A stretch of DNA of 63,787 nt, filler included, from Collodictyon triciliatum (Eukaryota): the NCBI GenBank assembly GCA_043381765.1. It is 54 parts of 54 records of this genome, joined end to end, with 100 filler letters (N's around TTAATTAATTAA, not from the genome) between each part and the next. Parts side by side here need not be neighbours in the genome. Positions count along the whole stretch, not along the records: positions 48,582 to 49,660 come from JBHJMP010012389.1; 53 more parts are not named here. The stretch is one strand, 5' to 3'. Below, in pieces: positions 22,737 to 49,660 of the stretch (positions are counted from its first letter, which is position 1; every line of letters starts with the position of its first letter). A program made the position numbers and the translations under genes. The notes beneath the pieces were generated by a model. It saw only the letters and a program-made list of their open reading frames with translations, ran no database searches and had not been told where the DNA came from.

Positions 22737-23519
22737 CTTCTGTTCCTCCATCTATGTATGGTATGATGCTTTCCTGCATAATATCTCCGTCTTCGTCGTA
22801 TCTAATTAACCCAGCCAAGGTAGCATTCATCCAGCGACGGGCATCAATCGAGTCCAAACCGCCAATAACAAAGTTGAACTGGCGATAAAATTCCGAACCA
22901 AAATCCTGAATTTTGTTGTGATGCCTTTTTTCCCGTTTGTTAAAGAAAAACCTCAGAAAATTACAAACATATACCCGGATAGCTTCAAGTCTTAAGCACT
23001 TTTTTTAATTTTTTTTTTTATCTAAAGCGAACTAAAGCCAGCATTCCCACCACCTTGCACAAAATTGAAAGAAAGAATGAAAAAAATCTATAAATCGATA
23101 TGATATAAAATTGGATACGCAACCACATTTACACCAGGAACACGCGCATTGACAAAGCGCGCCGCAACAAGCGCTTTTGATTGCCCAACATCCGACTTTC
23201 TGGAGTGGATTTCCATGTGAAAAGTGAATATGGATGGACTTTATGAGAAAAAAATAAGTATACACCATGAATAAATGTCATAAAGAAACACACAATCAGA
23301 GTACGTAAGAATCAGCGGTAGTGTATTCACGATTTTCTATTATGTGACGAAAAACCTGAAGAGAAACTGTCGATTTAGGTTAGAGATGTCTATGGTGTCC
23401 ATATCGATAACGTGAATATGACGGAATCCAGAAAGTGCAAGATTTTTGAGAACTTCAGAGCCGAGACCACCGGCACCTATAACAAGAACTTTGCAATCGT
23501 TTTGGATGAAGCTCAAAAC
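22737..23519 (-). CDS. UBA3: NEDD8-activating enzyme E1 catalytic subunit, internal exons
   Basis: [89 protein letters not shown]. Confidence 0.92.
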
Positions 23520-23606
23520 CTATATTTTCATTTTGAGGAATTACAGGGAAGTGTAATAATGATAATAATAATAATGATAATAATAATAATGATAATAATA
23601 ATAATG

Positions 23607-23637
<31 letters not shown>

Positions 23638-23750
23638 TAATAATAATAATNNNNNNNNNNNNNNNNNNNNNNNNNNNNNNNNNNNNNNNNNNNNTTAATT
23701 AATTAANNNNNNNNNNNNNNNNNNNNNNNNNNNNNNNNNNNNNNNNNNNN

Positions 23751-24541
23751 GGGATTATGACACGGGATTATGACACGGGATTATGACACGGGATTATGAC
23801 ACGGGATTATGACACGGGATTATGACACGGGATTATGCCACAGGATTATGATACGGGATTATTACACTACGGGGTTATGATACGGGATTATGCCACGGGA
23901 TTATGCACGGGATTATGGCACGGGATTATGACACAGGATTATGCCACTACGTGATTATGCCACGGGATTATGCCACGGGATTATGTCACGGGATTATGAC
24001 ACAGGATTATGACACGGGATTATGATACGGGATTATGATACGGGATTATGCCACGGGATAATGACACTGATTATGATACGGGATTATGCCACGGGATTAT
24101 GACACGGGGTTATGACACTGGATTATGCCACGGGTTATGCTACGGGATTATGGTACTACGGGATTATGGTACTACGGGATTATGGTACTACGGGATTATG
24201 ACACGGGATTATGATACGGGATTATGATACGGGATTATGATACGGGATTATGATACGGGATTATGACACGGGATTATGACACGGGATTATGACACTGATG
24301 AGATATGACACGGGATTACGATACTGGATTATGATAAGGGATTATGCCACGGGATTATGCCACGGGATTATGCACAGGATTATACTGCAGGATTATGACA
24401 CGAGATTATGCCACGGGATTATGACACTACGAGATATGATACTGGATTATGCCACGGGATTATGATACGGGATTGTGATATGGGATTGTGATATGGGATT
24501 GTGATATGGGATTGTGATATGGGATTATGCACAGGATTATG
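23751..24541. repeat. 13-bp minisatellite (GGGATTATGACAC)n with variant units
   Basis: About 60 copies. They are perfect at the contig edge, with variants ATAC/CCAC/GTACTAC and GGGATTGTGATAT further in. Confidence 0.92.
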
Positions 24542-47401: not shown

Positions 47402-47803
47402 TTTTGTCTTTTTGTCTTTTGGTCTTTTTGTCTTTTGGTCTTTTGGTCTTTTGGTCTTTTGGTCTTTTGGTCTTTTGGTCTTTTTGTCTTTTTGTCTTTT
47501 TGTCTTTTGGTCTTTTGGTCTTTTTGTCTTTTGGTCTTTTGGTCTTTTGGTCTTTTGGTCTTTTGGTCTATTGTCTTTTGGTCTTTTGGTCTTTTGGTCT
47601 TTTGGTCTTTTTGTCTTTTGGTCTTTTGGTCTTTTGGTCTTTTTGTCTTTTTGTCTTTTTGTCTTTTTGTCTTTTGGTCTTTTGGTCTTTTGGTCTTTTG
47701 GTCTTTTGGTCTTTTGGTCTTTTGGTCTTTTGGTCTTTTGGTCTTTTGGTCTTTTGGTCTTTTGGTCTTTTGGTCTTTTGGTCTTTTGGTCTTTTGGTCT
47801 TTT
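47402..47803. repeat. 8-bp minisatellite (CTTTTGGT)n
   Basis: Direct inspection; it produces the spurious repetitive ORFs in the track. Confidence 0.9.
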
Positions 47804-48581
47804 TTCGCGTCTAGGCCTTCTGATCCGTCCGGTCGTCCTGGCGTTCTTGCTGATGTGGGAGCAAGATGGGAAATGGGGCGCAGCAAGTTCGGCCATCGCG
47901 TTCATATATTCGGACGGCGCGCCGAGAAAGGAGCAGACTTGACAACATGATTCAAAAATTCAAACGGTTAATATATACCGCTCCTTATTGTGCAGTTGTC
48001 AATTACTCTGAATATGGCGACACCCATGATATGAGATTTCAATTATATCTGCACAACAATCACTAATTTCAGCTTTTATAGAACAAATTATGATTACCAT
48101 AAATAGATGACTTACTATATCCGTGCATATTTTTATTCCAGATTCAGTAAAAGGGTGGAAATAGCTCGCGCATGATGCAAAGGCAAGCTGCAACCCGTCG
48201 AAGGCTTTGCAAGTTGCAGCCAGTTCTTCTGGTTCCAACAATGGTGCGGAAAACCCCGAGTTGCATGTAAGTCCAGGAAAACCTGAGCAAGGAAGCCGCC
48301 TGCAAGTCTGTCTGAGCGGACAGTATTTTTGCATGATGTCGAGCAAATCGTTTACAACAAGAACAAGGCCCACAGGCTCACCGATGCGCTCGCCTCCTTC
48401 TTGAAAGCGAACAAACTTTGGGAAGAGTCCATCCAATTGCGCTTACCGGACAGCGAAGGCCTTTGCCTGATCGCCTTCCGCNNNNNNNNNNNNNNNNNNN
48501 NNNNNNNNNNNNNNNNNNNNNNNNNTTAATTAATTAANNNNNNNNNNNNNNNNNNNNNNNNNNNNNNNNNNNNNNNNNNNN

Positions 48582-49660
48582 CGCTAAGTATTGAATTACA
48601 TATTTCTCAGATACAGGATTACCCGCACATAGATACTGAGACAATTGCTTATAGGTCATACTACTCTTCCAAATAGTATAATCGGCTTCGGTCACAGTTT
48701 GAGCAATGTTTATACAATAGCCTAGCCAGTCTTTCCATTGTTGTCCGTCAAACTCTGGGAAATACTTTTCAAATGCAAAGCCCTTGAAATAGTTGTAGGC
48801 CTTGGGGTCGCACTGGTTTGTAAATCCGTCATAGGGTAAAAAGTCAAAGTACATAAAGTGTCGTTCTATTGGTAAGAATAACTGCACAGTTTCCCAAAAC
48901 CCATCTCCAAATTTTTGACAATAAGATGATGCAGACTTTATATGTTCGGGCTTACGAGTAGGTTGATCTGGGTACTCGACAAACAAGTTGCCAAGTAACA
49001 TAAAATGAGTCTTTGCAAATTCTTCTATTGGTGTGTCCGCTTTGATAGTAATTTCATTAGGCTCAAATGTTGATTCAATAGGTTCAAAGCTAAATTCTAC
49101 TCTGTACCCTGTCTCTTCTTCAATATATCTTGTCAAGGCTCCATTTCTGTCCTCTGGTTGATCGTACTGGGCTTTATTAATAAACAGCCCATCAAAATGA
49201 TACAGTCCAACATCGACCGCACATTCACCCAAGACATCGATCACTTTCTGCATTATTTTTGTTTCTTCTGTTTGCAGCAAATATGCCAACAAACTATAAA
49301 TGCGATTGTCGTGTTCTTCTAGACAACTAAATTCGTCTTTGAATTTTAACTTGTGCCATTCAGGATATTTTGAATATGCCATAGCAGCCAACACTTGCAT
49401 TTCACTTTGCAGTTTAATACTAAACTCGTCATTACTAACAAGTGCTTGTGTTTTGCCACTAAATGCTAACATCAAATATCTTTTCTTGACTTCCTTGCGA
49501 GTCTTATGTGTTAACTCCATTGCCCTTTCAATTATACTTTCACGGTTCTTTACATATTCCTCGATAGCTTCGTGATCTATATTCCATTTTTTTGCCAAAG
49601 CCAATGACAGAGCATAATGGCAGTTGACAATATCAAGGCTAGCATATTTATCCTTCAATA
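48582..49660 (-). CDS. TVpol (PolA-like primase-polymerase) domain running into a D5/SF3 helicase N-terminal region; viral, partial at both ends
   Basis: Intronless. Motif A-like LDIVNCH, motif B-like RKEVKKRYLMLAFSG, LQTEE and motif C-like HFDGL are followed by the D5_N-like YNYFKGF and YLCAGN...YVIQYLA. Confidence 0.78.

What the first reader, a model, noticed from the sequence alone, without database searches (positions are those of the whole stretch)
48582..49660. TVpol-helicase replication gene, probably from the same viral element class
Seen in sequence: PolA-like catalytic motifs (LDIVNCH / K..YL...FSG / LQ.EE / HFDG) followed by a D5_N-like segment, intronless and intact for 359 codons. 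Established knowledge: TVpol-SF3 helicase fusions occur in the Sputnik virophage (V13), some PLVs and related elements in place of pPolB. Inference: together with the MCP and fibre contigs this suggests a TVpol-type PLV. Physical linkage cannot be seen here.
Basis: partly seen in the sequence, partly recalled or inferred. Interest (0 to 1): 0.75.

Follow-up and report, generated by a model that had tools for sequence, protein, structure and literature searches.

The report
Fragment of a TVpol-helicase replication gene
This 1-kb contig is an intact internal piece of the polymerase-helicase replication gene typical of small polinton-like viruses and virophages, a known kind of gene whose link to the other virus-like contigs in the window is still unproven.

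Summary
The window is 54 unrelated ~1.08-kb contigs joined by N spacers. Contig 48582-49660 is filled by one minus-strand open frame of 359 codons, open at both ends, and it carries the quoted motifs.

The frame matches residues 80-438 of ~760-aa metagenomic proteins at 86-47% identity, with no indel against the closest ones.

The TVpol reading is supported:
- AlphaFold models have pLDDT 92-93.
- Residues 1-195 match family-A DNA polymerases first (Pol nu Z 10.0, Klenow Z 9.5, T7 Foldseek E 5e-5).
- In the full-length relative, 1-276 matches Pol theta/T7/Klenow (Z 14.6-15.9) and 283-726 matches the NrS-1, D5/E5 and C962R helicase modules (Z up to 24.7).
- D9, K58, E132, D156 and G157 are invariant in 100 relatives.
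- The family profile matches the TV-Pol gene of phage Ma-LMM01 (hhalign 95%, E 3e-8).

An 82%-identical relative lies between an A32-type packaging ATPase and an rve integrase.

Linkage to the window's other virus-like contigs is not shown, and PLV versus virophage stays open.

Verdict: a new member of a known kind, of modest interest.

The parts
48582..49658 (-). Open reading frame of 359 codons (P0001), open at both contig ends. It is an internal fragment (residues 80-438 of the 760-aa relative P0004) of a TVpol-SF3 helicase replication protein.
   Evidence: frame; 86-47% identical full-length relatives of 732-782 aa; dN/dS 0.28-0.29
49068..49658 (-). TVpol (minimal family-A polymerase) part on the contig: palm and fingers, fragment residues 1-197. 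The thumb and the beta-hairpin arginine lie upstream of the contig end.
   Evidence: VIA-align: Pol nu Z 10.0 (180 aligned, rmsd 3.7), Klenow Z 9.5, Pol theta Z 9.3, model range 1-195. Foldseek: T7 DNA polymerase E 5e-5. Full-length relative 1-276 versus Pol theta Z 15.9.
49617..49637 (-). Motif A, LDIVNCH (residues 8-14). D9 is the first catalytic aspartate, at the end of the first palm strand (E5-11).
   Evidence: D9 invariant in 100 of 100 aligned relatives. Aligns to YDVVKCH of the Ma-LMM01 TV-Pol. Strand and helix from the model.
49455..49499 (-). Motif B / fingers O-helix, RKEVKKRYLMLAFSG (residues 54-68). This is the RxxxK motif: R54 and invariant K58.
   Evidence: K58 invariant. hhalign places K58 on Klenow K758, L62 on F762 and F66 on Y766 (weak overall score). 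Helix H54-66.
49263..49277 (-). LQTEE (residues 128-132) in the long palm helix. E132 is invariant.
   Evidence: aligned to LQRIE of the Ma-LMM01 TV-Pol
49188..49199 (-). Motif C, HFDG (residues 154-157), at the beta-hairpin E150-154/E157-161. D156 is the second catalytic aspartate.
   Evidence: D156 and G157 invariant. Aligned to HDG of the Ma-LMM01 TV-Pol. Hairpin from the model.
48582..49049 (-). N-terminal, D5N-like lead-in of the SF3 (D5/NrS-1-type) helicase module, fragment residues 204-359. The contig ends about 20 residues before the Walker A GGTGKT of the relatives.
   Evidence: Full-length relative 283-726 versus NrS-1 C-terminal region 305-718 Z 24.7, SaPI5 primase-helicase Z 18.6, D5/E5 323-701 Z 15-16. 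Profile versus PDB sequences: NrS-1 E 2e-40 from profile position 401, SaPI5 from 338. Walker A position from the alignment.

Best explanation
The contig is an internal fragment of the single replication gene of a small eukaryotic dsDNA virus of the polinton-like-virus/virophage assemblage. The protein is about 760 aa. It fuses an N-terminal TV-Pol, a minimal family-A DNA polymerase with thumb, palm and fingers and no exonuclease, to a C-terminal D5/NrS-1-type superfamily-3 helicase module.

Shown here: the fold, the domain order, the invariant residues, purifying selection, and the virus-type gene neighbours of a close relative.

Inferred mechanism:
- The helicase module forms a ring that unwinds the element's DNA.
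- The tethered TV-Pol uses the two-aspartate, two-metal site (D9, D156) and the fingers RxxxK helix (R54, K58). It starts DNA chains on the exposed single strand and extends them, working as a primase-polymerase.
- This replaces the protein-primed PolB of polintons.
- Whether it copies the whole genome itself or hands over to a host or helper giant-virus polymerase is unknown.

The window's copy is unbroken over all 359 codons seen. It is either an integrated copy in the eukaryote that was sequenced, or DNA of a virus or cell sequenced along with it. The contig is too short to tell which.
For: (1) Frame: 359 codons without a stop, chance about 9e-13.

(2) Relatives: 10 full-length proteins of 732-782 aa at 86-47% identity, all with Pfam DUF5906 (SF3 helicase) right after the point where the fragment ends. 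There are 445 cluster representatives at E<=1e-3, mostly 650-850 aa, with the match at about residues 90-300.

(3) Fold:
- Fragment model pLDDT 93.2. An all-against-48,161-chain search puts family-A polymerases in ranks 1-7: Pol nu Z 10.0, Klenow 9.5, Pol theta 9.3, apicoplast pol 8.9, Pol1 8.9 and 8.8, T7 8.5. All span model 1-195.
- Foldseek's 50 listed rows are family-A polymerases except one Pol alpha row (best T7, E 5e-5).
- The full-length relative's model (pLDDT 92.3) splits into 1-276 = Pol theta/T7/Bst/Klenow/Taq polymerase domains (Z 14.0-15.9, 249-260 aligned) and 283-726 = NrS-1, SaPI5, ASFV C962R and poxvirus D5/E5 helicase modules (Z 15-24.7).

(4) Residues: D9, K58, E132, D156 and G157 are invariant in 100 sequences with mean column identity 15%. 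The family consensus reads GRxY..LQ..R / DIVNCHP / RxxAKxxxLxxxYGG / LQTEERK / DG.

(5) TV-Pol membership: the family profile versus the Ma-LMM01 ORF at 22746-24266 gives hhalign 95.1%, E 3.4e-8, 183 columns, with motifs A, B and C in register. It is the only hit in that 162-kb phage and lies beside transposase genes, as Iyer et al. describe for TV-Pol elements (PMC2579912, parts 1-2 read). E. coli Pol I scores far worse (hmmsearch E 3.2; hhalign 3.5%).

(6) Viral setting:
- Foldseek against viral models gives full-length matches to the Qinghai Lake virophage 'helicase/primase/polymerase' (E 5e-32) and the Zamilon 'DNA replication protein' (E 6e-25).
- The 82%-identical relative on L016 lies between a Pox_A32-type ATPase and an rve integrase.
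- Three distant relatives on 17-18-kb IMG/VR contigs sit with A32 ATPases and collagen-repeat proteins, one also with a weak (below Pfam cutoff) tyrosine-recombinase match.

(7) Function: the primase-polymerase prediction comes from Iyer 2008. The TV-Pol member CCPol, with its partner MP, was shown to prime and extend DNA with dNTPs, dependent on its two catalytic aspartates (PMC7581432, passages).
Against: - The fragment alone hits nothing significant in Pfam, PHROGs or PDB sequences.
- Pfam DNA_pol_A and D5_N do not hit it or its full-length relatives.
- hhalign against the E. coli Klenow polymerase domain is weak (3.5%, E 0.012). It places motif A five residues out of register and stops before motif C.
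- Catalytic equivalences therefore rest on fold, motif order and invariance, not on a residue-level structural alignment that I could inspect.
- The thumb, the beta-hairpin arginine, the Walker motifs, the gene's start and stop, and every neighbouring gene lie off the contig.
- No TV-Pol fused to a helicase has been assayed, according to the passage read in PMC7581432. CCPol needed a separate partner protein for priming, and no such partner is known here.
- The viral context is borrowed from relatives, not seen for this copy.
Confidence: 0.88

Rival explanations
1. The gene belongs to a virophage (Sputnik/OLV-like, dependent on a giant virus) and not to a polinton-like virus in the narrow sense.
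For: - TVpol-S3H is the replication protein of Sputnik V13, OLV25 and YSLV1 (PMC3671162 passages).
- The named full-length structural matches in the viral library are virophage proteins (Qinghai Lake virophage, Zamilon).
- Distant relatives sit with collagen-repeat proteins, as the paper describes for Sputnik and OLV.
- The window's MCP-like ORF is nearest to an Atlas cluster named after the Sputnik MCP first domain (0.97). This is a lead only.
Against: - The same fusion is widespread in PLVs: PgVV, PLV-YSL1, PLV-RED1, cryptophyte and Tetraselmis elements.
- The five best structural matches in the viral library have no names in the tables at hand.
- Pfam Sputnik_MCP_1st does not hit the window's MCP-like ORF or its full-length relatives.
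- No cysteine protease was seen on the related contigs scanned, but only ORFs of 90 aa or more from 3 of the 14 loci, plus L016, were scanned.
- The distinction rests on capsid genes that are not linked to this contig.
Confidence: 0.2
2. The contig is a prokaryotic TV-Pol/D5-helicase gene (phage, prophage or transposon) that contaminates the eukaryotic assembly.
For: - TV-Pols were first described mostly in bacterial mobile elements and phages (PMC2579912).
- The helicase half is closest in PDB to the phage NrS-1 protein.
- The frame has no introns.
Against: - tblastn of the fragment against 50,697 phage records finds nothing at E<=1e-3.
- The closest relative with context is flanked by a Pox_A32-type packaging ATPase and a retroviral-type rve integrase.
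- Related IMG/VR contigs are 17-27 kb with A32 ATPases and collagen proteins.
- Full-length structural matches are to virophage proteins ahead of phage proteins.
Confidence: 0.03
3. The gene is part of a giant virus (Nucleocytoviricota) genome or bin.
For: Two distant relatives (L003, L004) lie on IMG/VR contigs labelled as giant-virus bins. Structural matches include helicase proteins of giant viruses.
Against: - Those contigs are only 17-20 kb.
- The giant-virus matches cover the helicase half only (aligned columns 467-508, against 774-868 for the virophage-type matches).
- The closest relatives come from contigs of 2.5-17 kb.
Confidence: 0.03
4. The N-terminal domain is an archaeo-eukaryotic primase (AEP/prim-pol), as first annotated for Sputnik V13 and as is usual upstream of D5-like helicases.
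For: The architecture (an N-terminal nucleotidyl transferase fused to a D5-like helicase) is the same as in AEP-helicase fusions (NrS-1, C962R, D5). Some viral-library matches are annotated primase-polymerase.
Against: - The top structure matches for residues 1-195 are family-A polymerases, followed by family-B polymerases. No AEP is among the 50 rows listed.
- In the full-length model, the AEP-carrying chains (C962R, E5) align only from residue 283 on.
- The motifs match TV-Pol/PolA, and Iyer 2008 rejects the AEP assignment for V13.
Confidence: 0.01

Closest known systems
TV-Pol-D5-like helicase fusion proteins of virophages and PLVs (Sputnik V13, OLV25, PgVV TVpol, PLV-YSL1/RED1)
   Same: Same two-module architecture: a minimal PolA-like polymerase followed by a D5N-like segment and an SF3 helicase. 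The size is about 760 aa. It has the same motif set. There are full-length structural matches to the Qinghai Lake virophage and Zamilon replication proteins. A close relative has an A32 ATPase neighbour.
   Different: I could not align it directly to V13, OLV25 or PgVV, because none is in the collections at hand. Sequence identity to the viral-library matches is only 13-20%. The closest relative with context carries an rve integrase, not the tyrosine recombinase reported for PgVV and OLV. Only residues 80-438 are present in the window.
Stand-alone and transposon TV-Pols (Microcystis phage Ma-LMM01 ORF 30; SCCmec CCPol)
   Same: hhalign 95.1%, E 3.4e-8 to the Ma-LMM01 protein, with D[IV]V[NK]CH, the fingers lysine, LQxxE and DG in register. 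CCPol shows that the family can prime and extend DNA.
   Different: Those proteins have no fused helicase. They carry an extra N-terminal helical domain or need the partner MP. They sit in bacterial or phage mobile elements beside transposases or resolvases.
Family-A DNA polymerases (E. coli Pol I Klenow, T7 gp5, Pol theta, Pol nu)
   Same: Same right-hand polymerase fold over 249-260 residues (Z 14-16), and the same order of motifs A, B and C.
   Different: - No 3'-5' or 5'-3' nuclease domain, and a polymerase domain less than half the size.
- Motif C is DG, not DE.
- Histidine stands five residues after the motif A aspartate. In Klenow I recall this as the glutamate steric-gate position.
- No Pfam DNA_pol_A hit.
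- The profile score to Klenow is insignificant.
AEP primase-SF3 helicase proteins (phage NrS-1 primase-polymerase, vaccinia D5 / mpox E5, ASFV C962R, SaPI5 Pri-Rep)
   Same: The C-terminal two-thirds is the same helicase module, including its N-terminal lead-in (Z 15-24.7; profile E 2e-40 to NrS-1). It plays the same presumed role as the element's primase-helicase.
   Different: The catalytic N-terminal domain has a different fold (PolA-type, not AEP). This is a non-homologous replacement, as proposed by Iyer 2008.

Membership tests
TV-Pol (transposon-virus polymerase; Iyer, Abhiman & Aravind 2008, PMC2579912) | RRM-like palm with two highly conserved metal-binding aspartates | tested here: met
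   D9 and D156 are invariant in 100 of 100 aligned relatives. D9 sits on the first palm strand and D156 at the beta-hairpin (model). The palm and fingers fold matches PolA.
TV-Pol (transposon-virus polymerase; Iyer, Abhiman & Aravind 2008, PMC2579912) | Fingers module inserted after the first palm strand, with an RxxxK motif in its first helix | tested here: met
   R54-K-E-V-K58 lies at the start of helix 54-66. K58 is invariant, and R54 is kept in at least 90% of the 10 close relatives. hhalign puts K58 on Klenow K758.
TV-Pol (transposon-virus polymerase; Iyer, Abhiman & Aravind 2008, PMC2579912) | N-terminal thumb (two antiparallel helices) and a beta-hairpin that supplies an absolutely conserved arginine | tested here: inconclusive
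   These lie upstream of the contig end, so they are not in the window. In the relatives, G59-R60 (GRxY) is at least 90% conserved, and residues 1-79 are part of the PolA-matching domain.
TV-Pol (transposon-virus polymerase; Iyer, Abhiman & Aravind 2008, PMC2579912) | No fused nuclease or proof-reading domain | tested here: inconclusive
   It cannot be seen on the fragment. The full-length relatives (732-782 aa) are fully accounted for by 1-276 polymerase plus 283-726 helicase module.
TV-Pol (transposon-virus polymerase; Iyer, Abhiman & Aravind 2008, PMC2579912) | Significant sequence-profile similarity to a founding member | tested here: met
   Family profile versus Ma-LMM01 ORF 22746-24266: hhalign 95.1%, E 3.4e-8. 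It is the only hit in the whole phage record. Caveat: the paper's text names the phage, not the gene number.
V13-type TVpol-S3H fusion | C-terminal D5-like helicase module (D5N plus AAA+/SF3 core) on the same polypeptide | tested here: inconclusive
   The D5N-like lead-in (fragment residues 204-359) is on the contig and continuous with the polymerase. The P-loop core lies beyond the contig end. It is present in all 10 of 10 full-length relatives (PF19263).
Family-A DNA polymerase (Pfam DNA_pol_A) | Match to the curated family model | tested here: not met
   No DNA_pol_A row for the fragment at E<=10, nor for three full-length relatives at E<=1. The fold is shared, so it works like a PolA but is not a classical member.
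D5_N (Pfam PF08706) | Match to the curated family model upstream of the helicase core | tested here: not met
   No hit for the fragment or for P0004, P0008 and P0009. A distant relative on L006 reaches 22.5 bits against the cutoff of 22.4. Structurally the segment aligns with D5/E5 from residue 323.
Polinton-like virus / virophage genome | Double-jelly-roll MCP, penton protein and A32-type packaging ATPase on the same 15-40-kb molecule | not testable with these tools
   The contig is 1,079 bp and holds only this gene. No assembly is held. The relative L016 shows an A32 ATPase and an rve integrase beside the gene.

The most novel reading that the evidence does not exclude
The contig is a piece of an intact polinton-like virus integrated in the nuclear genome of the low-GC eukaryote that was sequenced. 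It belongs with the MCP-like contig 36777-37859. This would give a first host for a freshwater PLV lineage otherwise seen here only in metagenomes. That lineage combines a TVpol-S3H replicase with an rve integrase, so it may be a dormant, inducible element of the kind proposed to defend protists against giant viruses.
Probability: 0.25. Interest if true: 0.45.

Novelty: new member of a known kind. Interest (0 to 1): 0.3.

Why it matters
TVpol-S3H is one of the few interchangeable replication modules of polinton-like viruses and virophages. These elements are thought to shape protist genomes and to interfere with giant viruses.

This fragment adds a clean, high-confidence member. The fold models have pLDDT 92-93, and five residues are invariant across 100 relatives with mean column identity 15%. 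The fragment also flags that the sequenced eukaryote carries, or was sampled with, such an element.

Near-identical pieces occur in lake and freshwater metagenomes of at least two studies. The lineage is therefore circulating now and is not a fossil.

Beyond that it is an ordinary example. The class, its architecture and its predicted function are already in print.

Tried and rejected
- Single-sequence searches of the fragment: only sub-threshold chance rows in Pfam and PHROGs (PIN_8, Ter, E 0.02-0.15) and nothing in PDB sequences.
- The full-length family profile against PDB sequences found the helicase relatives but no polymerase.
- hhalign of the family against the E. coli Klenow polymerase domain: 3.5% probability, E 0.012, motif A out of register. 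hmmsearch of the family model against Pol I: E 3.2.
- Foldseek with the 760-aa model against PDB listed only helicase-module chains. The polymerase appeared only when the fragment was searched alone, or in the second look.
The names and accessions of the closest relatives, and their 17-kb contig, could therefore not be seen.
- The metagenome scan returned only two short contigs (2.8 and 6.2 kb).
- No other window contig matches any fetched locus by tblastx, blastn or phmmer. No other piece of the gene is in the window, and there are no end overlaps.
- IMG/VR scans with the two other virus-like ORFs found nothing. The MCP-like family profile found one distant contig, L018, whose helicase protein is not of this family. 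The MCP-like family has no Pfam or PDB sequence match.
- tblastn against the phage collection: no match.
- The Sputnik record is not in the collections.
- Sequencing runs: no run holds half of the sampled words. Laid Logan contigs cover only parts of the stretch at depth 2-5 and cannot give relative depth.
- The scan's earlier findings held nothing for this genome.
- No complex prediction was run.
Full report
**What the window is**

The 63,787 bases are not one molecule. They are 54 contigs of 1,076-1,096 bp in order of decreasing length. Each contig is separated from the next by 44 N, the 12-mer TTAATTAATTAA and 44 N.

Most contigs have no long open frame. The few coding ones include a WD40-repeat protein, a HECT domain and a CAF1A acidic region. 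The source is therefore a fragmentary, rather AT-rich eukaryotic assembly. No whole genome is held for it, and the scan's own notes have nothing on it.

**The observation**

The finding's coordinates are exactly one contig, 48582-49660. On the minus strand a single frame (49658 down to 48582) is open for all 359 codons and runs off both ends. No other frame of the contig has a stop-free stretch longer than 91 codons. With the strand's base composition, the chance of 359 stop-free codons is about 9e-13.

The quoted motifs are all present: LDIVNCH (residues 8-14), KKRYLMLAFSG (58-68), LQTEE (128-132) and HFDG (154-157).

**Relatives**

On its own the fragment hits nothing significant in Pfam, PHROGs or PDB sequences.

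A search restricted to longer proteins found 10 full-length relatives of 732-782 aa at 86-47% identity. All carry Pfam DUF5906, a P-loop SF3 helicase family. In the alignment the fragment corresponds to residues 80-438 of the 760-aa protein P0004. It shows no indel against the two closest relatives in that alignment, and the Walker A motif GGTGKT begins about 20 residues after the contig ends.

An exhaustive HMMER search found 445 cluster representatives at E<=1e-3. Most are 650-850 aa, with the match at about residues 90-300. The family is large and has one dominant architecture.

Two metagenome contigs carry 88.5% and 87% identical DNA. dN/dS of the window copy against them is 0.28 and 0.29, the same range as between the two of them (0.25-0.30). 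The window's copy therefore evolves under purifying selection, like its free relatives.

**The polymerase domain**

In a 100-sequence alignment with mean column identity 15%, only five columns in the fragment's range are invariant: D9, K58, E132, D156 and G157. The family consensus reads GRxY...LQ...R / DIVNCHP / RxxAKxxxLxxxYGG / LQTEERK / DG. This is the order of the pre-motif-A, A, B and C elements of family-A polymerases.

AlphaFold2 models built from that alignment are confident: pLDDT 93.2 for the fragment and 92.3 for P0004.

- **VIA-align, fragment.** A search of the fragment model against 48,161 representative PDB chains, independent of Foldseek, puts family-A polymerases in ranks 1-7. 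These are Pol nu Z 10.0 (180 residues, rmsd 3.7), Klenow Z 9.5 (chain 693-925), Pol theta 9.3, apicoplast polymerase 8.9, two Pol1 at 8.9 and 8.8, and T7 8.5. All span model residues 1-195. Family-B polymerases and unrelated RRM-like folds follow.
- **Foldseek, fragment.** Foldseek independently lists T7 DNA polymerase first (E 5e-5). Then come Klenow, Taq, Bst, M. smegmatis Pol1 and the apicoplast polymerase, with one Pol alpha row among the 50 listed.
- **Full-length model.** Residues 1-276 align to the polymerase domains of Pol theta (Z 15.9, 260 residues), T7 (14.8), Bst (14.7), Klenow (14.6, chain 537-926) and Taq (14.2).

The palm is there.

**Is it a TV-Pol, or just PolA-like?**

I read parts 1-2 of Iyer, Abhiman & Aravind 2008 (PMC2579912). 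They define the minimal TV-Pol domain by five features:

- a two-helix thumb;
- a beta-hairpin with an absolutely conserved arginine;
- an RRM palm with two aspartates;
- a fingers HTH with an RxxxK motif;
- no nuclease domain.

In Sputnik V13 the domain is fused to a C-terminal D5-like helicase module that includes D5N.

On the contig I find the two aspartates and R54xxxK58. The thumb and the GR hairpin lie in the 79 residues upstream of the contig end, but they are conserved in the relatives.

As a direct test I fetched the Microcystis phage Ma-LMM01 record, a phage the paper lists as carrying a TV-Pol. The family profile hits one ORF there (22746-24266, annotated hypothetical, next to two transposase genes). 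hhalign gives 95.1% probability and E 3.4e-8 over 183 columns. YDVVKCH, the fingers lysine, LQRIE and HDG line up with the window's motifs. It is the only hit in the whole 162-kb record.

By contrast, E. coli Pol I scores E 3.2 with the same model. hhalign to its polymerase domain gives 3.5% and E 0.012. That alignment is sensible for GRL..LQ and motif B, but motif A is five residues out of register. Pfam DNA_pol_A does not hit.

The domain is therefore a TV-Pol. It works like a family-A polymerase but is not a classical member. One caveat: the paper's text names the phage, not the gene.

**The downstream segment**

Residues 283-726 of the full-length model align to:

- the NrS-1 C-terminal region 305-718 (Z 24.7, 376 residues);
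- the SaPI5 primase-helicase (Z 18.6);
- ASFV C962R (Z 16-18);
- vaccinia D5 / mpox E5 from residue 323 (Z 15-16).

The sequence profile matches NrS-1 at E 2e-40. Fragment residues 204-359 are thus the N-terminal lead-in of that helicase module.

'D5_N-like' is a fair structural description. Pfam D5_N itself hits neither the fragment nor three close relatives. It only just reaches threshold in a distant relative (22.5 bits against a cutoff of 22.4).

**Viral setting**

- **Viral structure library.** Against predicted viral structures, the full-length model's best matches span the whole protein (774-868 alignment columns). Of the seven best, the two that carry names are the Qinghai Lake virophage 'helicase/primase/polymerase' (E 5e-32) and the Zamilon 'DNA replication protein' (E 6e-25). 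Phage and giant-virus matches rank lower, and those with low rmsd cover only the helicase half.
- **Closest relative with context.** The 82%-identical relative on the 6.2-kb contig L016 lies between a Pox_A32-type packaging ATPase (E 2e-9) and an rve-family integrase (E 9e-11).
- **Distant relatives.** Three of them, on 17-18-kb IMG/VR contigs, sit with A32 ATPases and collagen-repeat proteins, and one also with a weak tyrosine-recombinase match below the Pfam cutoff.
- **Phages.** tblastn against 50,697 phage records finds nothing.
- **Literature.** TVpol-S3H is reported in Sputnik, OLV, YSLV1, PgVV, PLV-YSL1/RED1, and in cryptophyte and Tetraselmis PLVs. It is described as one of several mutually exclusive, readily exchanged replication modules (passages read in PMC3671162, PMC4642659, PMC12220804, PMC9356565). 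Mixed integrase and replicase combinations are described in PMC7805220.

The gene therefore belongs to the PLV/virophage assemblage. It cannot by itself say which of the two.

**How it most likely works**

The following is inference. The SF3 module forms a ring helicase. The tethered TV-Pol starts and extends DNA chains on the unwound strand, using D9 and D156 for two-metal catalysis and R54 and K58 for the incoming nucleotide. In this way it substitutes for the protein-primed PolB of polintons.

The primase-polymerase role was predicted from domain displacement. It has been shown for one family member, SCCmec CCPol. That enzyme primes with dNTPs, but only together with a partner protein, MP, and it depends on its two aspartates (passages). 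The same paper states that no other TV-Pol had been characterised. Whether this protein primes unaided, and whether it copies the whole genome, is unknown.

**Linkage to the other virus-like contigs**

- No contig of the window overlaps this one or holds the rest of the gene.
- None matches the neighbours of its relatives.
- Contig 36777-37859 carries a 309-codon ORF whose relatives are 579-632-aa proteins at 92-61% identity on contigs of up to 25 kb.
- A protein-language-model look-up places that ORF next to a cluster named after the Sputnik MCP first domain (0.97; a lead only).
- A 33%-identical member on IMG/VR contig L018 lies 1.7 kb from an A32 ATPase. The helicase protein of that contig is not of the TVpol family.
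- The ORF of contig 30861-31944 stays unidentified.
- In trinucleotide composition, these two contigs rank 1 and 4 of 53 in closeness to the TVpol contig. The differences are small, and coding contigs cluster anyway.
- Read depth could not be compared. No run holds half of the sampled words.

**Occurrence in other sequencing runs**

The laid Logan contigs show that 164-385-bp pieces with 0-1 mismatches occur in a lake-water metagenome, a freshwater metagenome of a different study, and one unlabelled run. That last run may be the source of the window. The lineage is therefore present in fresh waters today.

**Verdict**

The 'one PLV' inference is unproven.

The contig is a new member of a well-described kind and is not a new system. 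Its value is as a marker that the sequenced eukaryote harbours, or was sampled with, a PLV/virophage-type element.

Noticed in passing
window 36777-37859 (ORF 36778-37704, minus strand): A 309-codon ORF that looks like the N-terminal half of a capsid protein. Its relatives are 579-632 aa at 92-61% identity on metagenome contigs of up to 25 kb. The nearest Atlas cluster is named after the Sputnik MCP first domain (0.97). There is no Pfam or PDB sequence match. A distant member on L018 lies near an A32 ATPase.
   Followed up: partly
window 30861-31944 (ORF 31176-31943, minus strand): A 256-codon Gly/Thr/Ser-rich ORF, open at the contig end. It has no relative in IMG/VR. Atlas scores are below 0.9, to small proteins of tailed phages. 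Its identity (fibre-like?) is unresolved.
   Followed up: partly
L016:322-1044, 1537-3822, 4781-6037: The 82%-identical relative sits in the order A32-type ATPase, TVpol-S3H, two small ORFs, then an rve integrase on the opposite strand. This pairs a TVpol replicase with a polinton-type integrase, not with a tyrosine recombinase.
   Followed up: partly
L015:131-173 and 458-500: In the 88.5%-identical metagenome contig, a 43-bp stretch from inside the gene is repeated upstream of the gene's start codon at 221. The upstream copy is 97.7% identical to the matching window bases, 49616-49658.
   Followed up: no
L019 (AB231700) 22746-24266, minus strand: The Ma-LMM01 gene annotated 'hypothetical protein' (BAF36121.1), next to two transposase genes, is the phage's only match to the TVpol family profile (hhalign 95.1%). 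Its first ~230 residues are an extra N-terminal domain.
   Followed up: yes
window 47402-48481: The neighbouring contig is largely a tandem repeat that reads as KDQKTKRP-like units in one strand's frames and FWSFGLLV-like units in the other's. It is probably a satellite and not a gene.
   Followed up: no
window 3566-4653: A 362-codon frame fills the whole contig and encodes seven WD40 repeats (E 1e-71). This is a eukaryotic host gene without introns over 1 kb, useful as a host-composition reference.
   Followed up: no
window 48582-49660, in runs X1, X2, X6: Short low-depth contigs from a lake-water metagenome, a freshwater metagenome of a different study and an unlabelled run carry 164-385-bp pieces of this contig with 0-1 mismatches. 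One of them runs 56 bases beyond the contig's low-coordinate end.
   Followed up: partly
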